A program made the position numbers and the translations under genes. Under the pieces are notes generated by a model. That model had not been told where the DNA came from. It ran no database searches and was given only the letters and a program-made list of their open reading frames with translations. A stretch of DNA of 15,329 nucleotides, taken from positions 1 to 15,329 of IMG/VR virus record IMGVR_UViG_2531839583_000004; one strand, given 5' to 3'. Of this stretch, positions 3,267-15,159 are shown in pieces. Each line of letters begins with the position of its first letter. Within the stretch, counting starts at the first letter, position 1. Source of the stretch: a virus. Lineage: Duplodnaviria > Heunggongvirae > Uroviricota > Caudoviricetes.

Positions 3267-3342
3267 GGCCCTTTAGCTCAGTGGTGAGAGCGAGCGACTC
3301 ATAATCGCCAGGTCGCTGGTTCAAATCCAGCAAGGGCCACCA
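3267..3342 (+). tRNA. tRNA with anticodon CAU (Ile2/lysidine-type or Met), including encoded CCA
   Basis: Cloverleaf: acceptor GGCCCTT/AAGGGCC, D-arm GCTC...GAGC, anticodon loop CTCATAA (anticodon CAT at 3300-3302), T-loop GGTTCAAATCC, 3' ACCA. Very close to E. coli ileX and to ileZ of Stx phages as recalled. Confidence 0.9.
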
Positions 3343-3439: not shown

Positions 3440-3516
3440 GCGTTGTTAGCTCAGCCGGACAGAGCAATTGCCTTCTAAGCAATCGGTCACTGGTTCGAAT
3501 CCAGTACAACGCGCCA
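3440..3516 (+). tRNA. tRNA-Arg (anticodon UCU), including encoded CCA
   Basis: Acceptor GCGTTGT/ACAACGC, D-arm GCTCAGCCGGACAGAGC, anticodon loop CTTCTAA (anticodon TCT), T-loop GGTTCGAATCC, discriminator G plus CCA at 3514-3516. Resembles the argU/argO type. Confidence 0.9.
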
Positions 3517-4390: not shown

Positions 4391-4655
4391 CCTTCCCGGA
4401 TTACTGAATGTGGTGTTAAGCACGGTTATCGTGCTGACGCTCTTTTTTTATCGTCGTGGTGATTCCAGACATAAACCGCTGATGTCGTGGCTGGCCTGGC
4501 TGCTGATGCTGCTGTATGCCTTTGCGCCACTTTGTTATCTGTGTGGTCGCTTTCCACCCGGTAACTGGCTGGTCGTCCTGATTAACCTGGTGTTCTGCGT
4601 GCTGGTGATACGAGCACGCGGGAACGTATCAAAAATCCTTTCATTACGGAGGTGA
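4380..4655 (+). CDS. second lysis-cassette membrane protein (holin/antiholin-like, 91 aa)
   Basis: GGAGG 5 nt upstream of ATG 4380; overlaps the holin 3' end by 11 nt; stop is 2 nt before the endolysin start. Predicted 2-3 transmembrane segments. Confidence 0.5.
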   Translation: MLSNLPGLLNVVLSTVIVLTLFFYRRGDSRHKPLMSWLAWLLMLLYAFAPLCYLCGRFPPGNWLVVLINLVFCVLVIRARGNVSKILSLRR

Positions 4656-4657
4656 GT

Positions 4658-5035
4658 ATGCCCGGTAAATTCAGATTCAGTCGTCGAAGTGAGAAAAATC
4701 TGGAGGGCGTCAAACCACAGCTGGTTGCTGTTGTTCGCCGTGCGCTGGAGCTGACGGAGGTTGACTTCGGTATTACGGAAGGCCTGCGCAGTAAGTATCG
4801 CCAGAAGCAGCTGGTCGCGGAAGGGAAAAGCCAGACCATGAACAGCCGCCACCTGACCGGTGATGCGGTGGATGTTGTGGCCTACATTGGTAGCCAGGTG
4901 TCATGGGACTGGCCTCTGTACGAGAAAATCGCGCAGGCATTTAAGCAGGCTGCCGCAGAGCTGGGAACTGCCATCGAATGGGGCGGGGACTGGAAAACAC
5001 TGAAAGACGGGCCTCACTTTCAGTTGAAGTGCTAA
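4658..5035 (+). CDS. endolysin, peptidase M15 family (L-alanyl-D-glutamate endopeptidase, T5 Lys-like)
   Basis: GGAGG 5 nt upstream of ATG 4658. Conserved Zn-ligand context SRHL...DAVD...DGPHFQL (His, Asp, His) typical of M15 phage endolysins. About 126 aa. Confidence 0.85.
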   Translation: MPGKFRFSRRSEKNLEGVKPQLVAVVRRALELTEVDFGITEGLRSKYRQKQLVAEGKSQTMNSRHLTGDAVDVVAYIGSQVSWDWPLYEKIAQAFKQAAAELGTAIEWGGDWKTLKDGPHFQLKC

Positions 5036-5049
5036 TAACCAGGTGGTTT

Positions 5050-5232
5050 ATGAGCCGAAAACACTGGACACACAGAATGCCGCGAACGGCGGCGAAATGG
5101 GCACTGGTAGCGATACTGGTGCCTTTTTTCCTGGTGGGATGCGTTAGCCTGGATAAGGTGCGCCAGCTTTTCGATACGGCCTCGCAGGTCTGCGAAATTG
5201 TCGAAAGTGCCAGGCAGTGTATGCAGAACTGA
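5050..5232 (+). CDS. small lipoprotein (lipobox LVGC); possible o-spanin-like or other lysis-associated lipoprotein
   Basis: AGGTGG upstream of ATG 5050. Signal peptide AKWALVAILVPFFLVG followed by Cys; mature peptide about 30 aa with three Cys. Immediately follows the endolysin. No Rz-like partner ORF detected. Confidence 0.5.
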   Translation: MSRKHWTHRMPRTAAKWALVAILVPFFLVGCVSLDKVRQLFDTASQVCEIVESARQCMQN

Positions 5233-5319
5233 TCGCCTGTAAGAGCAGAATATTGTTGAATCTAAATTTACTTTGAACAGTGGCCCGGATGGAAAGGGCA
5301 TCTAAATAGGAGCAGAAAA

Positions 5320-5529
5320 ATGTTAACTGTAAAAGTCATGTCTCAAAATGGTGGGGAAGAGCTCCATTGCGGGCGTAGCATTGGCTATCATCCAGAGCAG
5401 CGGAGTATTGCCGTATCGGGAAAGGATGGGAAAGTCATTCTGAAAGATGGAGATATTGCTTATGTAATGAACCAAAACGCTCAAATAATATCTGTTTATC
5501 GGCCCAATAATAGTCAGAAAAACATTTGA
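5320..5529 (+). CDS. hypothetical small protein (69 aa) in AT-rich moron
   Basis: Good Shine-Dalgarno AGGAG 6 nt upstream of ATG 5320. Low-GC codon usage distinct from flanking phage genes. Confidence 0.5.
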   Translation: MLTVKVMSQNGGEELHCGRSIGYHPEQRSIAVSGKDGKVILKDGDIAYVMNQNAQIISVYRPNNSQKNI

Positions 5530-5571
5530 ATTTCGCAAGTCCAAAGTTCAGTGGTGATCGTTATCAACTAA

Positions 5572-5600
5572 TTGAAATAACAAGCTTATGTTTGTGTAAT
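5572..5600 (+). promoter_or_regulatory. candidate sigma70 promoter (TTGAAA, 17 bp spacer, TGTAAT) for the second moron ORF
   Basis: TTGAAA at 5572-5577, 17-bp spacer, TGTAAT at 5595-5600, about 50 bp upstream of the ORF starting at 5653. Confidence 0.35.
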
Positions 5601-5652
5601 TGGTGATATAGCATGTTAATGCTGAATATCAGCGTCAACATGGAGTTATACA

Positions 5653-5868
5653 ATGGTTTTTAAACACTATTACGTGAACAAAAATGCTCAGAGCAATGGC
5701 GATCATGAGGTGCATGCTGAGGAATGTTCATATCTTCCTGCTGTAGCTAACCGCGATTACCTTGGTTACTATAGTGATTGTTCTTCGGCGGTAACAGAGG
5801 CAAAGGCCAAAGGATATTCCCGGGTGAATGGTTGCTATTGGTGTGCCAATAAGTGCCACACGTCTTAA
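5653..5868 (+). CDS. hypothetical small Cys/His-rich protein (71 aa) in AT-rich moron
   Basis: GGAG 8 nt upstream of ATG 5653. Cys/His pattern (EEC...DC...GCYWCANKCH) suggests a metal-binding mini-domain. Followed directly by a terminator. Confidence 0.5.
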   Translation: MVFKHYYVNKNAQSNGDHEVHAEECSYLPAVANRDYLGYYSDCSSAVTEAKAKGYSRVNGCYWCANKCHTS

Positions 5869-5887
5869 TCAATTGTCAATAAACCAT

Positions 5888-5911
5888 AAAGGCCGCTCTG
5901 CGGCCTTTTTC
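5888..5911 (+). terminator. rho-independent terminator closing the moron
   Basis: Stem GGCCG (5891-5895) / CGGCC (5901-5905), loop CTCTG, then TTTTT (5906-5910); an upstream A-run makes it potentially bidirectional. Confidence 0.7.
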
Positions 5912-6185
5912 ATGTTAAAAAAGATTGCGGCATTACAGCAGCCCTTCACACTGAGTGGCTGCGATAATGTGAGAAATAAAAAACCGGCAGGGGAAATCCA
6001 TTGAAGATTTGCCGGTGGCAAAAAGATGGCCATGCTTTCAACCTTAGTCGCAGGGTTACGGAGTGCAACTACGAATGCTGCCGGTATATGGCTGAATGGC
6101 GTTTCAATGATGTACGTCATCTTATCTGTAAATGTTAATGATAAAAGCTCTCATTTGTGCGGGTCCTTCCGGTGGGGTGGCCTGC

Positions 6186-6206
6186 CACGGGGCGGAAGGC
6201 GCGCGG
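6186..6206. other. cosN (cohesive-end site), variant 12-nt core GGGCGGAAGGCG
   Basis: Flanking sequence ...CACG|GGGCGG......|CGCGGGTTTTCGCTATTTATGAAAATTTTCCGG matches the lambda left end as recalled. The 12-nt core differs from lambda GGGCGGCGACCT at positions 7-10 and 12. Confidence 0.6.
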
Positions 6207-6239
6207 GTTTTCGCTATTTATGAAAATTTTCCGGGGAAA

Positions 6240-6356
6240 ATCATGTCGGTACTTCTCGAACATAACTATTTGTTTTTTCTAATATCGAATCCGTAAAAGG
6301 TCCGACATGAAAACGCCTAAAAAAGTCATTTTCGGGCACTTTCATGTCGGACCCTG
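6240..6356. promoter_or_regulatory. cosB-like region: three CATGTCGG(A/T)C repeats (R3, inverted R2, R1) around an AT-rich putative IHF-bending segment
   Basis: CATGTCGGTAC at 6242-6252 (+), TCCGACATGAAA at 6301-6312 (inverted), TTTCATGTCGGACC at 6341-6354 (+); AT-rich spacer 6254-6298. Arrangement parallels lambda R3-I1-R2-R1 but with a different repeat sequence. Confidence 0.55.
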
Positions 6357-6377
6357 TGTTTGTTGTGAGACTGTTTC

Positions 6378-6897
6378 ATGAAGGTTAATAAAAAGAAACT
6401 TGCCGAAATTTTCAACGTGGATCCGCGAACGATTGAACGCTGGCAGTCTCAGGGACTCCCTTGCGTCTCCGGAGGTGGTAAGGGCGTTGAATCTGTATTT
6501 GATACCTCCATGGCAATTCAGTGGTATGCGCAGAGGGAGGCTGATATCGAAAATGAAAAACTCCGTAAAGAGGTTGAGGATTACAGGGCTGCCAGTGAGG
6601 CAGATCTCCAGCCTGGGACTATTGAGTACGAACGCCATCGACTTACGCGTGCGCAGGCCGACGCACAGGAGCTGAAGAATGCCAGAGACTCCGCAGAAGT
6701 GGTGGAAACCGCATTCTGTACTTTCGTGCTGTCACGGATCGCAGGTGAAATTGCCAGTATTCTTGACGGGATCCCTCTCTCGGTACAGCGGCGTTTTCCG
6801 GAACTGGAAAACCGACATGTTGATTTCCTGAAACGGGATATCATCAAAGCCATGAACAAAGCAGCCGCGCTGGATGAACTGATACCGGGGTTGCTGA

Positions 6898-6923
<26 letters not shown>
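6378..6923 (+). CDS. nu1: terminase small subunit Nu1
   Basis: 181 aa. C-terminal two thirds essentially identical to lambda Nu1 as recalled; N-terminal winged-HTH region homologous but diverged. Located just downstream of cos. Confidence 0.95.
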
Positions 6924-10604
<3,681 letters not shown>

Positions 10605-10624
<20 letters not shown>

Positions 10625-11924
10625 TCTCCCGCATATTGCCAGCATGGCCTTTAATGAGCCGCTGATGCTTGAACCCGCCTATGCGCGGGTTTTCTTTTGT
10701 GCGCTTGCAGGCCAGCTTGGGATCAGCCGCCTGACGGATGCGGTGTCCGGCGACAGCCTGACTGCCCAGGAGGCACTCGTGACGCTGGCATTATCCGGTG
10801 ATGATGACGGACCACGACAGGCCCGCAGTTATCAGGTCATGAACGGCATCGCCGTGCTGCCGGTGTCCGGCACGCTGGTCAGCCGGACGCGGGCGCTGCA
10901 GCCGTACTCGGGGATGACCGGTTACAACGGCATTATCGCCCGTCTGCAACAGGCTGCCAGCGACCCGATGGTGGACGGCATTCTGCTCGATATGGACACG
11001 CCAGGCGGAATGGTGGCGGGGGCATTTGACTGCGCTGACATCATCGCCCGTGTGCGTGACATAAAACCGGTATGGGCGCTGGCCAACGACATGAACTGCA
11101 GTGCAGGTCAGCTGCTTGCCAGTGCCGCCTCCCGGCGTCTGGTCACGCAGACCGCCCGGACAGGCTCCATCGGCGTCATGATGGCTCACAGTAATTACGG
11201 TGCTGCCCTGGAGAAACAGGGTGTGGAAATCACGCTGATTTACAGCGGCAGCCATAAGGGGGATGGCAATCCCTACAGCCATCTTCCGGATGACGTCCGG
11301 GAGACACTGCAGTCCCGGATGGACGCAACCCGCCAGATGTTTGCGCAGAAGGGGTCGGCATATACCGGCCTGTCTGTGCAGGCTGTGCTGGATACCGAGG
11401 CTGCAGTGTACAGCGGTCAGGAGGCCATTGATGCCGGACTGGCTGATGAACTTGTTAACAGCACCGATGCGATCACCGTCATGCGTGATGCACTGGATGC
11501 GCGTAAATCCCGTCTCTCAGGAGGGCGAATGACCAAAGAGACTCAATCAACAACTGTTTCAGCCACTGCTTCGCAGACTGACGTTACTGACGTGGTGCCA
11601 GCGACGGAGGGCGAAAACGCCAGCGCGGCGCAGCCGGACGTGAACGCGCAGATCACCGCTGCGGTTGCGGCAGAAAACAGCCGCATTATGGGGATCCTCA
11701 ACTGTGAGGAGGCTCACGGACGCGAAGAACAGGCCCGCGTGCTGGCAGAAACCCCCGGTATGACCGTGGAAACGGCCCGCCGCATTCTGGCAGCTGCACC
11801 ACAGAGTGCACAGGCGCGCAGTGACACTGCGCTGGATCGTCTGATGCAGGGGGCACCGGCACCGCTGGCTGCAGGTAACCCGGCATCTGATGCCGTTAAC
11901 GATTTGCTGAACACACCAGTGTAA
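10605..11924 (+). CDS. C: capsid assembly protease / minor capsid protein C
   Basis: GTG start at 10605 overlapping the B 3' end by 20 nt; 439 codons; translation VTAELRNLPHIASMAFNEPLMLEP... matches lambda gpC. The track ORF start at 10458 lies inside B and is rejected. Confidence 0.93.
11319..11924 (+). CDS. nu3: scaffolding protein Nu3 (in-frame internal start within C)
   Basis: In-frame ATG at 11319 giving MDATRQMFAQKGSAYTGL..., co-terminal with C as in lambda. Confidence 0.8.
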   Translation: MDATRQMFAQKGSAYTGLSVQAVLDTEAAVYSGQEAIDAGLADELVNSTDAITVMRDALDARKSRLSGGRMTKETQSTTVSATASQTDVTDVVPATEGENASAAQPDVNAQITAAVAAENSRIMGILNCEEAHGREEQARVLAETPGMTVETARRILAAAPQSAQARSDTALDRLMQGAPAPLAAGNPASDAVNDLLNTPV

Positions 11925-11933
11925 GGGATGTTT

Positions 11934-12266
11934 ATGACGAGCAAAGAAACCTTTACCCATTACCAGCCGCTGGGCAACAGTGACCCGGCACATACGGCAA
12001 CCGCGCCCGGCGGATTGAGTGCGAAAGCGCCTGCAATGACCCCGCTGATGCTGGACCCCTCCACCCGTAAGCTGGTTGTGTGGGATGGCACCACCGACGG
12101 TGCTGCCGTTGGCATTCTGGCGGTTGCTGCTGACCAGACCAGCACCACGCTGACGTTCTACAAGTCCGGCACGTTCCGTTATGAGGATGTGCTCTGGCCG
12201 GAGGCTGCCAGCGACGAGACGAAAAAACGGACCGCGTTTGCCGGAACGGCAATCAGCATCGTTTAA
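11934..12266 (+). CDS. D: head decoration protein D
   Basis: 110 aa, [27 protein letters not shown]... matches lambda gpD; Shine-Dalgarno AAGGGA upstream of ATG 11934. Confidence 0.95.
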
Positions 12267-12286
12267 CCTTACCCTTCATCACTAAA

Positions 12287-12308
12287 GGCCGCCTGTGCGG
12301 CTTTTTTT
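12287..12308 (+). terminator. intergenic hairpin plus T-run between D and E (terminator/attenuator-like)
   Basis: Stem GCCGC (12288-12292) / GCGGC (12297-12301), loop CTGT, then TTTTTTT (12302-12308). Confidence 0.45.
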
Positions 12309-12321
12309 ACGGGATTTTTTT

Positions 12322-13347
12322 ATGTCGATGTACACAACCGCCCAGCTGCTGGCGGCAAATGAGAAGAAATTTAAGTTTGATCCGCTGTTTCTGCGTCTCT
12401 TTTTCCGTGAGAGCTATCCCTTCACCACGGAGAAAGTCTATCTCTCACAAATTCCGGGACTGGTAAACATGGCGCTGTACGTTTCGCCGATTGTTTCCGG
12501 TGAGGTTATCCGCTCCCGTGGCGGCTCCACCTCTGAATTTACACCGGGATATGTCAAGCCGAAGCATGAGGTGAATCCGCAGATGACCCTGCGTCGCCTG
12601 CCGGATGAAGATCCACAGAATCTGGCGGACCCGGCTTACCGCCGCCGTCGCATCATTCTGCAGAACATGCGAGACGAAGAGCTGGCCATTGCTCAGGTCG
12701 AAGAGATGCAGGCCGTTTCTGCCGTGCTTAAGGGCAAATATACCATGACCGGTGAAGCCTTCGATCCGGTTGAAGTGGATATGGGCCGCAGTGTGGCGAA
12801 CAACATCACGCAGTCCGGCGGTACGGAGTGGAGCAAGCGTGACAAGTCCACGTATGACCCGACCGACGATATCGAAGCCTACGCGCTGAACGCCAGCGGT
12901 GTGGTGAATATCATCGTGTTTGATCCGAAAGGCTGGGCGCTGTTCCGTTCCTTCAAAGCCGTCAGGGAGAAGCTGGATGCCCGTCGCGGCTCTCATTCCG
13001 AGCTGGAGACAGCGGTAAAAGATCTGGGCGAAGCGGTGTCCTATAAGGGGATGTATGGCGATACGGCGATCGTCGTGTATTCCGGACAGTACGTGGAAAA
13101 CGACGTCAAAAAGAACTTCCTGCCGGACAACACGATGGTGCTGGGGAACACTCAGGCACGCGGTCTGCGCACCTATGGCTGCATTCAGGATGCGGACGCA
13201 CAGCGCGAAGGTATTAACGCCTCTGCCCGCTACCCGAAAAACTGGGTGACCACCGGCGATCCGGCGCGTGAGTTCACCATGATTCAGTCAGCACCGCTGA
13301 TGCTGCTGGCTGACCCTGATGCGTTCGTGTCCGTACAACTGGCGTAA
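12322..13347 (+). CDS. E: major capsid protein E
   Basis: 341 aa, MSMYTTAQLLAANEKKFKFDPLFLRLFF... matches lambda gpE. ATG 12322 is preferred over the track start 12295, which lies inside the hairpin. Confidence 0.97.
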   Translation: MSMYTTAQLLAANEKKFKFDPLFLRLFFRESYPFTTEKVYLSQIPGLVNMALYVSPIVSGEVIRSRGGSTSEFTPGYVKPKHEVNPQMTLRRLPDEDPQNLADPAYRRRRIILQNMRDEELAIAQVEEMQAVSAVLKGKYTMTGEAFDPVEVDMGRSVANNITQSGGTEWSKRDKSTYDPTDDIEAYALNASGVVNIIVFDPKGWALFRSFKAVREKLDARRGSHSELETAVKDLGEAVSYKGMYGDTAIVVYSGQYVENDVKKNFLPDNTMVLGNTQARGLRTYGCIQDADAQREGINASARYPKNWVTTGDPAREFTMIQSAPLMLLADPDAFVSVQLA

Positions 13348-13388
13348 TCATGGCCCTTCGGGGCCATTTTCTCTCTGTGGAGGAGTCC

Positions 13389-13784
13389 ATGACGAAAGAT
13401 GAACTGATTGCCCGTCTTCAGGTGCTGGGTGAGCAACTGAACCGTGATGTCAGCCTGACGGGGACGAAAGAAGAACTGGCACTCCGTGTGGCAGAGCTGG
13501 AAGAGGAGCTTGATGACACGGATGACGCTGCTGGTCAGGACACATCTGTCAGCCCGGAAAATGCGCTGACCGGACATGAAAATGAGGTTGTATCAGCGCA
13601 GCCGGATACCGTGACTGATACGGCTGATCTGGTCACGGTTGTGGCACTGGTGACGCTGCATACTGATGCACTTCACGCCACGCGGGATGAGGCTGTGGCA
13701 TTTGTGCTGCCGGGAACGGCGTTCCGTGTCTCTGCCGGTGTGGCAGCTGAAATGACAGAGCGCGGCCTGGCCAGAATGCAATAA
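13389..13784 (+). CDS. FI: DNA packaging / head completion protein FI
   Basis: 131 aa, MTKDELIARLQVLGEQLNRDVSLTGTKEELALRVAELEEEL... matches lambda gpFI; Shine-Dalgarno GGAGGAG upstream. Confidence 0.9.
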   Translation: MTKDELIARLQVLGEQLNRDVSLTGTKEELALRVAELEEELDDTDDAAGQDTSVSPENALTGHENEVVSAQPDTVTDTADLVTVVALVTLHTDALHATRDEAVAFVLPGTAFRVSAGVAAEMTERGLARMQ

Positions 13785-13795
13785 CGGGAGGCGCT

Positions 13796-14149
13796 GTGGC
13801 TGATTTCGATAACCTGTTCGATGCTGCCATTGCCCGCGCCGATGAAACGATACGCGGGTACATGGGAACGTCAGCCACCATGACATCCGGTGAGCAGTCC
13901 GGTGCTGTGATACGTGGTGTTTTTGATGATCCTGAAAATATCAGCTATGCCGGACAGGGCGTGCGCGTTGAAGGCTCCAGCCCGTCCCTGTTTGTCCGGA
14001 CTGATGATGTGCGGCAGCTGCGGCGTGGAGACACGCTGACCATCGGTGAGGAAAACTTCTGGGTAGATCGGGTTACGCCGGATGATGGCGGAAGCTGTCA
14101 TCTCTGGCTTGGGCGGGGGGTACCGCCTGCCGTTAACCGTCGCCGCTGA
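13796..14149 (+). CDS. FII: head-tail connector protein FII
   Basis: GTG start at 13796; 117 aa; ADFDNLFDAAIARADETIRGYMGT... matches lambda gpFII. Confidence 0.9.
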   Translation: MADFDNLFDAAIARADETIRGYMGTSATMTSGEQSGAVIRGVFDDPENISYAGQGVRVEGSSPSLFVRTDDVRQLRRGDTLTIGEENFWVDRVTPDDGGSCHLWLGRGVPPAVNRRR

Positions 14150-14160
14150 AAGGGGGATGT

Positions 14161-14739
14161 ATGGCCATAAAAGGTCTTGAGCAGGCCGTTGAAAACCTCA
14201 GCCGTATCAGCAAAACGGCGGTGCCTGGTGCCGCCGCAATGGCCATTAACCGCGTTGCTTCATCCGCGATATCGCAGTCGGCGTCACAGGTTGCCCGTGA
14301 GACAAAGGTACGCCGGAAACTGGTAAAGGAAAGGGCCAGGCTGAAAAGGGCCACGGTCAAAAATCCGCAGGCCAGAATCAAAGTTAACCGGGGGGATTTG
14401 CCCGTAATCAGGCTGGGTAACGCGCGGGTTGTCCTGTCCCGACGCAGGCGTCGTAAAAAGGGGCAGCGTTCAGCCCTGAAAGGTGGCGGCAGCGTGCTTG
14501 TGGTGGGAAACCGTCGTATTCCCGGCGCGTTTATTCAGCAACTGAAAAATGGCCGCTGGCATGTCATGCAGCGTGTGGCCGGGAAAAACCGTTACCCCAT
14601 TGATGTGGTGAAAATCCCGATGGCGGTGCCGCTGACCACGGCGTTTAAACAGAATATTGAACGGATACGGCGTGAACGTCTTCCGAAAGAGCTGGGCTAT
14701 GCGCTGCAGCATCAACTGAGAATGGTAATAAAGCGATGA
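14161..14739 (+). CDS. Z: tail completion protein Z
   Basis: 192 aa, MAIKGLEQAVENLSRISKTAVPGAAAMAINRV... matches lambda gpZ; Shine-Dalgarno AGGGGGA upstream. Confidence 0.95.
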   Translation: MAIKGLEQAVENLSRISKTAVPGAAAMAINRVASSAISQSASQVARETKVRRKLVKERARLKRATVKNPQARIKVNRGDLPVIRLGNARVVLSRRRRRKKGQRSALKGGGSVLVVGNRRIPGAFIQQLKNGRWHVMQRVAGKNRYPIDVVKIPMAVPLTTAFKQNIERIRRERLPKELGYALQHQLRMVIKR

Positions 14740-15131
14740 AACATACTGAACTCCGTGCAGCCGTACTGGATGCACTGGAGAAGCATGACACCGGGGCGAC
14801 GCTTTTTGATGGTCGCCCCGCTGTTTTTGATGAGGCGGATTTTCCGGCAGTTGCCGTTTATCTCACCGGCGCTGAATACACGGGCGAAGAGCTGGACAGC
14901 GATACCTGGCAGGCGGAGCTGCATATCGAAGTTTTCCTGCCTGCTCAGGTGCCGGATTCAGAGCTGGATGCGTGGATGGAGTCCCGGATTTATCCGGTGA
15001 TGAGCGATATCCCGGCACTGTCAGATTTGATCACCAGTATGGTGGCCAGCGGCTATGACTACCGGCGCGACGATGATGCGGGCCTGTGGAGTTCAGCCGA
15101 TCTGACTTATGTCATTACCTATGAAATGTGA
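14736..15131 (+). CDS. U: tail tube terminator protein U
   Basis: 131 aa, MKHTELRAAVLDALEKHDTGATLFDGRPAVFDEADF... matches lambda gpU; ATGA overlap with the Z stop. Confidence 0.95.
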   Translation: MKHTELRAAVLDALEKHDTGATLFDGRPAVFDEADFPAVAVYLTGAEYTGEELDSDTWQAELHIEVFLPAQVPDSELDAWMESRIYPVMSDIPALSDLITSMVASGYDYRRDDDAGLWSSADLTYVITYEM

Positions 15132-15138
15132 GGACGCT

Positions 15139-15159
15139 ATGCCTGTACGGAAACATTGA
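15139..15159 (+). pseudogene. V: vestigial start of major tail gene V (ATGCCTGTAC) followed by an in-frame stop after 6 codons
   Basis: Sequence AGGACGCTATGCCTGTAC matches the lambda U-V junction and V start as recalled, then diverges; frame reads M-P-V-R-K-H-stop. Confidence 0.4.

What the first reader, a model, noticed from the sequence alone, without database searches (positions are those of the whole stretch)
6240..6620. Swapped packaging-specificity module: novel cosB repeats paired with a diverged Nu1 N-terminal DNA-binding domain
cosB contains three copies of CATGTCGG(A/T)C in R3 / inverted R2 / R1 arrangement instead of lambda's CGTTTCC-type R sites. In step with this, the first 75 residues of Nu1 (the winged-HTH that reads the R sites) are diverged from lambda, whereas the rest of Nu1 and all of A are near-identical. 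This implies a recombination junction inside nu1 around 6600-6620 and a packaging specificity distinct from lambda.
Basis: partly seen in the sequence, partly recalled or inferred. Interest (0 to 1): 0.45.

Follow-up and report, generated by a model that had tools for sequence, protein, structure and literature searches.

The report
Phage-21-type packaging site on lambda terminase
This E. coli prophage carries the DNA-packaging recognition site and matching DNA-binding domain of phage 21 joined, by a crossover inside the small-terminase gene, to lambda-type terminase and head genes; this is a natural copy of hybrids made in the laboratory decades ago, and about one in ten sequenced E. coli genomes has it.

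Summary
TCATGTCGG occurs three times in the window, all within 110 bp between cosN and nu1, in direct/inverted/direct order. Nu1 changes from diverged to near-identical to lambda.

The repeats are not novel. They are the R3, R2 and R1 boxes of phage 21 cosB, which GenBank M81255 annotates. Window 6235-6582 is 86% identical to phage 21.

- Nu1 residues 1-64 are 89% identical to phage 21 gp1. The turn and recognition helix are identical, including the specificity residues E20 and S24.
- R3 carries the 21-type base pairs at positions 56 and 59.
- Nu1 residues 76-181 are 99% lambda, and gpA is 99.4% lambda.

This matches the viable, 21-specific laboratory hybrid lambda-21 hy51. The same junction sequence is present in roughly 460-560 of 5,426 complete E. 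coli genomes and in the phage IdasGreatGrand.

One relative (L051) is identical to the window from the lysis genes through cos, then carries 21-type head genes. So in this lineage a single crossover in nu1 replaced the head-gene block.

Side findings: the R2-R1 spacer is inverted relative to phage 21, and the cohesive end is a variant (GGGCGGAAGGCG).

Verdict: an ordinary but tidy natural mosaic, of low to moderate interest.

The parts
6161..6167 (+). cosQ (GGGTCCT), the packaging-termination signal
   Evidence: It is identical to lambda bp 48473-48479. It lies 22 nt from the nick site, against 23 nt in lambda and phage 21. Its function is inferred from lambda (PMC4669245).
6190..6201 (+). cosN cohesive-end sequence, variant GGGCGGAAGGCG (lambda and phage 21 have GGGCGGCGACCT)
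   Evidence: The alignment to lambda, phage 21 and IdasGreatGrand has no gaps here. Positions 7-10 and 12 differ, while the left half and the flanking CG dinucleotides are kept. The exact 21-mer occurs in 77 IMG/VR contigs and in the propagated phage PhiR46_1.
6219..6233 (+). Position equivalent to the IHF site I2 of phage 21, inside the conserved cosN-to-cosB stretch
   Evidence: Mapped from the M81255 annotation (I2 at 196-210) through the gap-free alignment.
6239..6254 (+). R3 box (AATCATGTCGGTACTT), the critical TerS binding site
   Evidence: It maps to R3 of phage 21 (M81255 216-231) with 15 of 16 bases identical. It is at the same distance from cosN as in lambda and phage 21. Base pairs 56 and 59 are G, the 21 type (PMC4669245).
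6261..6275 (-). I1, the IHF binding and bending site between R3 and R2
   Evidence: It maps to I1 of phage 21 (238-252). AAACAAATAGTTA at 6263-6275 on the minus strand matches WATCAANNNNTTR with one mismatch, as the phage 21 site does.
6297..6312 (-). R2 box (AAGGTCCGACATGAAA on the + strand), inverted relative to R3 and R1
   Evidence: It is identical to R2 of phage 21 (273-288). The window has one more base between I1 and R2 than phage 21.
6311..6341 (.). 31-bp R2-R1 spacer, inverted relative to phage 21
   Evidence: It is 27/31 identical to the reverse complement of the phage 21 spacer and 20/31 identical in direct orientation. At the 11 non-palindromic positions, 8 match the inverted orientation and 1 the direct one. 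Fisher p = 2.6e-6.
6340..6355 (+). R1 box (TTTCATGTCGGACCCT)
   Evidence: It maps to R1 of phage 21 (316-331) with 14 of 16 bases identical.
6378..6569 (+). nu1 codons 1-64: 21-type winged helix-turn-helix DNA-binding domain
   Evidence: It is 57/64 identical to phage 21 gp1 and 37/64 identical to lambda Nu1. Residues 8-29 are identical to phage 21, including E20 and S24. It matches the solved DNA-binding domains PDB 7lwr (sequence of the phage 21 domain) and 1j9i.
6570..6593 (+). Recombination junction zone in nu1 (codons 65-72)
   Evidence: Informative sites switch from 21-type to lambda-type here, with the maximum chi-square between 6589 and 6593. The same junction sequence is in all 46 hybrid loci examined.
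6594..6923 (+). nu1 codons 73-181: lambda-type oligomerisation and TerL-binding part
   Evidence: Residues 76-181 are 105/106 identical to lambda. The whole protein matches Pfam PF07471 Phage_Nu1.
6898..8823 (+). Gene A, lambda-type large terminase subunit
   Evidence: It is 637/641 identical to lambda gpA. The first 48 residues, which bind TerS, are 47/48 identical. It matches the Pfam GpA_ATPase and GpA_nuclease families.

Best explanation
Window 6161-6923 holds a complete lambda-family cos site and a naturally chimeric small-terminase gene. cosB (R3, I1, R2, R1) and the first ~64 codons of nu1 belong to the phage 21 specificity class, in a diverged allele I call '21b'. From codon ~72 onward, nu1, A and the head genes are lambda-type.

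Mechanism, inferred from the lambda/21 paradigm. Dimers of the 21-type winged-HTH domain bind R3 and R2, which IHF brings together by bending the DNA at I1. R1 plays an accessory role. The lambda-type C-terminus of the same protein holds lambda-type gpA over cosN. gpA then makes the staggered nicks and docks on the lambda-type portal.

The prophage should therefore package with 21-like specificity, not lambda specificity, while building lambda-type heads.

The chimera arose by homologous recombination at the end of the DNA-binding domain. In this lineage it was one crossover, which joined a 21-like left arm (lysis genes, cos, 5' nu1) to a lambda-type head-gene block.

Shown here: the sequence relationships, the junction and the distribution. 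Inferred: the binding and the packaging specificity.
For: - Window 6235-6582 is 86% identical to phage 21 (X02501, M81255, OL657228).
- The M81255 annotation of R3, I1, R2 and R1 maps onto the three repeats and the IHF-like site.
- The TerS turn and recognition helix are identical to phage 21, including E20 and S24. R3 base pairs 56 and 59 are G/G as in phage 21. PMC4669245 names these positions as critical for lambda/21 discrimination.
- The cosN-to-R3 distance is unchanged.
- The switch is sharp. On the left, 17 of 137 informative sites are lambda-type. On the right, 132 of 136 are. None of 2000 permutations reached this chi-square.
- The Nu1 C-terminal part is 99% lambda, gpA residues 1-48 are 47/48 lambda, and the portal is 98.9% lambda. 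All protein-protein interfaces are therefore of matching type.
- The laboratory hybrid lambda-21 hy51 (cosB-21, 5' half of gene 1, 3' half of Nu1) is viable and is used as the 21-specific helper (PMC4669245; PMC9026076).
- Phage IdasGreatGrand, deposited as an E. coli phage from swamp mud, carries the same module at 98% identity.
- L051 is identical to the window up to about 6445-6532 and is 21-type thereafter.
- All hybrids examined share one junction sequence.
Against: - No binding or packaging experiment exists for this allele.
- It differs from phage 21 at seven positions in TerS residues 1-64: K7R in the support helix, V30A, G32K, G34S and V37I in and around the wing, S44A, and A55T.
- It also differs by one base in R3 and two in R1, by one extra base pair between I1 and R2, and by the inverted R2-R1 spacer. 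No match was found at the phage 21 I0 position. Its specificity could therefore be shifted or broadened relative to phage 21.
- The cohesive end and the cosQ-cosN spacer are non-canonical, and nothing here shows that this particular prophage is inducible.
- The direction of the exchange cannot be decided. L051 could equally be the derived recombinant.
Confidence: 0.85

Rival explanations
1. This is a new, third packaging specificity. The '21b' allele of cosB and the DNA-binding domain has diverged far enough from phage 21 that it is no longer cross-packaged with phage 21, so it forms its own specificity group.
For: - Nucleotide identity to phage 21 over the module is only 86%.
- There are seven amino-acid differences in residues 1-64, including K7 in the support helix and a lambda-like GGGKG wing.
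- The R3-R2 spacing is one base pair longer, and the R2-R1 spacer is inverted.
- The allele is kept at 96-100% identity across many loci, distinct from the true phage 21 allele.
Against: - The turn and the recognition helix (residues 13-26) are identical to phage 21, including the genetically defined specificity residues 20 and 24.
- The R-box cores are identical or closer to the consensus than those of phage 21. R3 here is CATGTCGG, against CGTGTCGG in phage 21.
- From my own recollection of Feiss et al. 2010 (Genetics 184:43), which the paper tools did not hold, the wing does not contribute to cosB specificity.
Confidence: 0.1
2. This is a decayed remnant. The cos and nu1 region belongs to a defective prophage, and the mosaic is a non-functional by-product of recombination among resident prophages.
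For: - Related loci include clear wrecks: Nu1-A deletion fusions in L049, L100, L109 and L117, and IS insertions in A in strain 510016 and H10407-like strains.
- The cohesive end is non-canonical.
Against: - In the window, nu1, A, W, B, C, D, E, FI, FII, Z and U are all intact and 96% identical to lambda over 9 kb.
- The same module is in the deposited phage IdasGreatGrand, and the same cohesive-end variant is in the propagated phage PhiR46_1.
- The hybrid allele is conserved in roughly 460-560 genomes.
Confidence: 0.05

Closest known systems
Phage 21 cosB and gene 1 (TerS-21) packaging-specificity determinants
   Same: - The same R3-I1-R2(inverted)-R1 layout, at the same distance from cosN.
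- The same R-box core, CATGTCGG.
- An identical turn and recognition helix (E20, S24), and 21-type base pairs 56 and 59 in R3.
- 86% nucleotide and 89% amino-acid identity over the module.
   Different: - In phage 21 the rest of gene 1, gene 2 and the head genes are only 50-65% identical to the window.
- The window allele has a lambda-like GGGKG wing and K7 instead of R7.
- It has one extra base pair between I1 and R2, an inverted R2-R1 spacer, and no I0-like IHF match.
- Its cohesive end differs.
Laboratory hybrid phage lambda-21 hy51 (Frackman, Siegele and Feiss 1985; used in PMC4669245)
   Same: cosB-21 and the 5' part of gene 1 are fused in frame to the 3' part of lambda Nu1, working with lambda gpA and lambda heads. 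That hybrid is viable and 21-specific.
   Different: - hy51 was selected in laboratory crosses between lambda and phage 21 themselves, and is described as half and half.
- Here the joint is at codons ~65-72, the donor is a diverged 21-like allele, and the chimera is natural and widespread.
- I could not read the 1985 paper to compare crossover points.
Phage lambda cos/Nu1/A
   Same: [quoted passage not shown]
   Different: cosB and Nu1 residues 1-64 are of the other specificity class (about 50-60% identity). Five of the 12 cohesive-end bases differ. The cosQ-cosN spacer is diverged and 1 nt shorter.
Escherichia phage IdasGreatGrand (PP925829)
   Same: The same 21b cosB, the same hybrid nu1 and the same junction sequence, at 98.4% identity over 6235-6610.
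   Different: It has the lambda-type cosQ-cosN region and cohesive end, different upstream genes, and a further mosaic joint at the nu1/A overlap.
TerS mosaicism in P22-like phages (cited in PMC4669245)
   Same: Horizontal exchange of TerS gene segments that separates the DNA-recognition part from the TerL-binding part.
   Different: Those are headful (pac) phages from an unrelated TerS family, with the recognition site inside the gene.

Membership tests
Phage 21-type cosB / TerS specificity class | Three R boxes with core CATGTCGG, in the order R3 (direct), R2 (inverted), R1 (direct), between cosN and the TerS start codon | tested here: met
   All three exact copies of TCATGTCGG in the window lie here. 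They map onto the annotated R3, R2 and R1 of M81255.
Phage 21-type cosB / TerS specificity class | An IHF site (I1) between R3 and R2 | tested here: met
   A one-mismatch match to WATCAANNNNTTR lies at 6263-6275 (-), at the position of the phage 21 I1 site, which has the same single mismatch. IHF binding itself was not tested.
Phage 21-type cosB / TerS specificity class | R3 at the fixed distance from cosN, with G:C at base pairs 56 and 59 (lambda has T and C) | tested here: met
   The alignment from cosN through R3 has no gaps. The window has G at both positions, as phage 21 does. PMC4669245 gives these positions as critical.
Phage 21-type cosB / TerS specificity class | A TerS helix-turn-helix with the phage 21 recognition helix (residue 20 = E, residue 24 = S) | tested here: met
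   Residues 8-29 are identical to phage 21 gp1. The domain matches the solved DNA-binding domain 7lwr, which has the phage 21 sequence, at E = 6e-28.
Phage 21-type cosB / TerS specificity class | Packaging of cos-21 DNA and more than 1000-fold discrimination against cos-lambda DNA | not testable with these tools
   This needs helper-packaging or in vitro packaging assays.
Lambda Nu1 family of small terminase subunits (Pfam PF07471) | A full-length match to the family profile above the curated cut-off | tested here: met
   300.8 bits against a cut-off of 30, covering residues 1-164 of 164 profile positions.
Lambda-21 chimeric TerS (hy51-like) | [quoted passage not shown] | tested here: met
   Residues 1-64 are 89% identical to phage 21 and 58% to lambda. 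Residues 76-181 are 99% identical to lambda and 51% to phage 21. gpA is 99.4% lambda, and its first 48 residues are 47/48 lambda.
Lambda-like cos (as defined in PMC4669245) | A 12-base 5' cohesive end with significant identity to lambda, a conserved left half and flanking CG dinucleotides, and a conserved 7-bp cosQ | tested here: met
   Positions 1-6 (GGGCGG) are identical, CG flanks both nick sites, and cosQ GGGTCCT is present. The actual DNA ends were not determined.

The most novel reading that the evidence does not exclude
A single ancestral lambda/21 chimeric nu1 allele, with one shared junction, has spread to about a tenth of sequenced E. coli genomes. It now sits behind at least two different cohesive-end types and several different late regions. 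The reading is that selection favours moving the cosB/DNA-binding-domain specificity unit between head-gene backbones. One possible benefit is that co-resident lambda-like prophages, or cos-type satellites that target the TerS DNA-binding domain, cannot cross-package or hijack each other. On this reading the '21b' allele, with its inverted R2-R1 unit and lambda-like wing, would be a functionally distinct specificity group, and the GGGCGGAAGGCG cohesive end would define a separate end-compatibility group.
Probability: 0.15. Interest if true: 0.45.

Novelty: new member of a known kind. Interest (0 to 1): 0.22.

Why it matters
It shows that the domain boundary the Feiss laboratory defined with engineered lambda-21 hybrids is also used in nature. 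[quoted passage not shown] The resulting chimera is common in pathogenic E. coli, including ETEC and O157:H7.

In practical terms, prophages annotated simply as 'lambda-like' or 'terminase small subunit' may have 21-type rather than lambda-type packaging specificity. This affects predictions of which co-resident prophages, cosmids or satellites can be packaged by which terminase. It does not change the understanding of the mechanism.

Tried and rejected
- **A third TerS backbone.** Loci L049, L100, L109 and L117 have a 'win'-type cosB with an unmatched C-terminal part. I rejected this reading because translation shows they are deletions fusing Nu1 codon ~34 to gpA sequence, so they are defective prophages.
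- **A left-hand cassette junction at about 6236.** Lambda-type informative sites at 6204-6235 are followed by 21-type sites. I rejected this as a joint of this lineage, because the full-length 21-like relatives L051 and L053 have the identical sequence from the lysis genes through cosB.
- **The non-canonical cohesive end as a sign of a dead cos.** The same 12-mer is in 77 IMG/VR contigs and in the propagated phage PhiR46_1, and PMC4669245 says right-half variation is common and tolerated.
- **Escape from PICI Rpp proteins as the driver.** The two lambda TerS residues whose mutation gives Rpp escape (Y50, E65; PMC6739421) are unchanged in the window protein, so there is no support for this.
- **Primary papers I could not read.** Sippy et al. 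2015 (PMC5006951), Feiss et al. 2010 (PMC2815929) and Feiss et al. 2015 Virology (PMC4461450) are not held. A search for the PDB code 7LWR found no paper.
- **Source of the window.** No complete E. coli genome is identical to it. The best match is 98.7% identity to ETEC strain 504838.

Full report
**Context.** The window is the late region of a lambda-like prophage of E. coli.
- The closest complete genome is ETEC strain 504838, at 98.7% identity over 99% of the window.
- That strain's annotation and the ORF list give this gene order: DUF968, RusA, DUF1133, a DNA methyltransferase, two tRNA genes, holins, an M15 endolysin, cos, nu1 (6378-6923), A (6898-8823), then W, B, C, D, E, FI, FII, Z and U.
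- From 6202 to 15148 the window is 96% identical to lambda.

**Checking the observation.**
- The exact 9-mer TCATGTCGG occurs three times in the window: 6241-6249 (+), 6302-6310 (-) and 6342-6350 (+). The chance expectation is 0.19.
- R2 and R1 form the cores of a 25-nt imperfect palindrome.
- The Nu1 pattern is also as described. Residues 1-64 are 58% identical to lambda, residues 76-181 are 99% identical, and gpA is 99.4% identical.

**What the repeats are.** They are not novel.
- A BLAST search of 6235-6610 against phage genomes finds phage 21 (X02501, M81255, OL657228) and relatives at 86% identity over 6235-6582.
- The M81255 record annotates R3 (216-231), the IHF site I1 (238-252), R2 (273-288) and R1 (316-331) as gp1 and IHF binding sites of cosB-21.
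- Through the alignment these map to window positions R3 6239-6254 (15/16 identical), I1 6261-6275, R2 6297-6312 (16/16) and R1 6340-6355 (14/16).
- The I1 position carries a one-mismatch IHF consensus on the minus strand, as the phage 21 site does.
- The alignment from cosN to R3 has no gaps. This matters because the cosN-to-R3 distance is critical in lambda (PMC4669245).

**Specificity determinants.** Feiss et al. 2015 (PMC4669245) make three relevant statements:
- Lambda and phage 21 each package their own DNA more than 1000-fold better than the other's.
- Base pairs 56 and 59 of R3 and residues 20 and 24 of TerS are critical for recognition and discrimination.
- Glu24 of lambda TerS clashes with the G:C pair at position 56 of R3-21.

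The window is 21-type at every one of these positions.
- It has G at base pairs 56 and 59.
- Its TerS has E20 and S24.
- Residues 8-29 of its TerS are identical to phage 21 gp1.

The N-terminal domain matches solved small-terminase DNA-binding domains. These include 7lwr, whose sequence is that of phage 21 (E = 6e-28), and 1j9i, the lambda Nu1 domain.

Within TerS residues 1-64 the window differs from phage 21 at seven positions: K7R in the support helix; V30A, G32K, G34S and V37I in and around the wing; and S44A and A55T.

**The junction.**
- On 273 sites where lambda and phage 21 differ, the window is 21-type at 120 of 137 sites to the left and lambda-type at 132 of 136 to the right.
- The maximum chi-square falls between 6589 and 6593 (chi2 = 197; 0 of 2000 permutations reached this). 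The last run of 21-type sites ends at 6569.
- The zone 6570-6593 (codons 65-72) is patchy and matches neither reference fully.
- Everything that has to fit together on the protein side is lambda-type: the Nu1 C-terminal part (105/106), gpA residues 1-48 (47/48) and the portal gpB (98.9%).

**Comparison with known hybrids.** This is the architecture of the laboratory hybrid lambda-21 hy51.
- hy51 has cosB-21 and the 5' half of gene 1, followed by the 3' half of Nu1. It is viable and serves as the 21-specific helper phage (PMC4669245).
- That class of chimera originally defined the TerS domains for cosB binding and for TerL binding (Frackman et al. 1985, as cited in PMC9026076).
- The natural chimera should therefore assemble with lambda gpA and recognise a 21-type cosB. 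This step is inferred, not shown.

**How common it is.**
- A 525-nt query spanning the junction (6236-6760) finds full-length matches at about 98% identity in roughly 460-560 of 5,426 complete E. coli genomes, including O157:H7 strains. I estimated this from the evenly spaced rows and the identity bands.
- True 21-type genes at 95% identity or better occur in about 580 genomes.
- The exact Nu1 protein is on at least 130 contigs, including an ETEC H10407 accession, and is always named just 'terminase small subunit'.
- One deposited phage, IdasGreatGrand (PP925829), has the same module at 98% identity.
- All 46 hybrid loci I collected from IMG/VR share one junction sequence, so this is one ancestral event that has since spread.

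**Origin.** I classified 147 IMG/VR loci. The sample is biased by the search patterns I used. The window's allele of the module, which I call 21b, occurs in three settings:
- with a lambda-type nu1 3' end and a lambda cohesive end (34 loci);
- with a lambda-type 3' end and the variant cohesive end (12 loci);
- inside full-length 21-like genes (6 loci: L051, L053, L093, L116, L146, L151), whose 3' part is 92-97% identical to phage 21.

L051 is essentially identical to the window from 4646 to about 6445-6532, which covers the lysis genes, cosQ, cosN, cosB and 5' nu1. It then becomes 21-type through the head genes. For this lineage the simplest history is one crossover in nu1 that exchanged the head-gene block, not a two-ended cassette swap. 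The direction of the exchange cannot be decided.

In IdasGreatGrand and many other loci, the same hybrid nu1 follows a lambda-type cosQ-cosN. Further joints must therefore lie in the conserved cosN-I2 stretch. De Paepe et al. 2014 (PMC3945230) showed experimentally that exchanges between lambda and defective prophages cluster next to cos and can replace nu1.

**Additional features of this cos.**
1. *Inverted spacer.* The 31-bp R2-R1 spacer (6311-6341) is inverted relative to phage 21.
   - It is 27/31 identical to the reverse complement of the phage 21 spacer and 20/31 identical in direct orientation. The direct figure is no more than the spacer's own palindromy gives.
   - Of the 11 non-palindromic positions, 8 match the inverted orientation and 1 the direct one.
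   - Mismatches in the direct comparison concentrate at those positions (Fisher p = 2.6e-6).
   - All 56 21b-type loci have this orientation and all 43 21-type loci have the other.
   - A flip by recombination or template switching between the inverted R2 and R1 boxes would explain this, and it is presumably neutral.
2. *Variant cohesive end.* The cohesive end is GGGCGGAAGGCG, differing from lambda at positions 7-10 and 12.
   - The cosQ-cosN spacer is diverged and 1 nt shorter, while cosQ itself (GGGTCCT, 6161-6167) is intact.
   - PMC4669245 reports that right-half cohesive-end variation is common and does not affect cutting.
   - This variant has five changes, more than the examples given there. 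It is found with lambda-type, 21b-type and a third type of cosB/TerS, and in the propagated phage PhiR46_1.

**Verdict.**
- There is a recombinant nu1 whose DNA-binding domain matches its cosB, and the predicted specificity is not lambda's.
- The repeats are the known phage 21 R boxes.
- The arrangement duplicates a classic laboratory hybrid.
- The allele is already present, unremarked, in hundreds of genomes.

I rate it a new member of a known kind, of low to moderate interest. The inverted R2-R1 spacer and the mix-and-match of cosQ spacer, cohesive end and cosB class are the only points I did not find described.

Noticed in passing
window 6190-6201 (and the spacer 6168-6189): The cohesive-end sequence is GGGCGGAAGGCG instead of lambda/21 GGGCGGCGACCT, with 5 of 12 bases changed, all in the right half. 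The cosQ-to-nick spacer is strongly diverged and 1 nt shorter than in lambda. The exact 21-mer around it is in 77 IMG/VR contigs. It is combined there with lambda-type, 21-like and a third type of cosB/TerS. It also occurs in the propagated phage PhiR46_1.
   Followed up: partly
window 6311-6341: The spacer between R2 and R1 is inverted relative to phage 21 (27/31 identity to the reverse complement, 20/31 direct). All 21b-type loci have this orientation and all 21-type loci have the other.
   Followed up: yes
L051 (IMGVR_UViG_2537561932_000021) versus window 4646-7300: This contig is about 100% identical to the window from the lysis genes through cos and 5' nu1. It then switches to phage-21-type terminase and head genes. 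The two are a sister pair differing by one crossover in nu1.
   Followed up: yes
L003 (IdasGreatGrand) versus window 6918-6960: A second mosaic joint lies exactly at the nu1/A overlap. IdasGreatGrand drops to 70-80% identity for about 40 nt at the start of A, then returns to about 97%. Its large terminase is annotated as two ORFs.
   Followed up: no
L049, L100, L109, L117: In other prophages the same 21b cosB is followed by deletions that fuse Nu1 codon ~34 in frame to internal or C-terminal gpA sequence. These are defective remnants that keep cos.
   Followed up: partly
L082 (E. coli 510016) and H10407-like genomes: The otherwise identical prophage has an IS21-family element (ISEc10) inserted in gene A. 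Other ETEC strains have ISCro1 in the same region. The window's copy of A is intact.
   Followed up: no
window 3267-3342 and 3440-3516: Two tRNA genes lie between the methyltransferase and the lysis genes. One has a CAT anticodon (called Met by ARAGORN, and Ile in the RefSeq annotation of a near-identical strain). The other is tRNA-Arg (TCT). This is typical of the late regions of lambdoid prophages in pathogenic E. coli.
   Followed up: no
window 6362-6376: Phage 21 has an annotated IHF site (I0) between R1 and the gene 1 start, with a one-mismatch consensus match. The window has no match at one mismatch or fewer at the equivalent position.
   Followed up: partly
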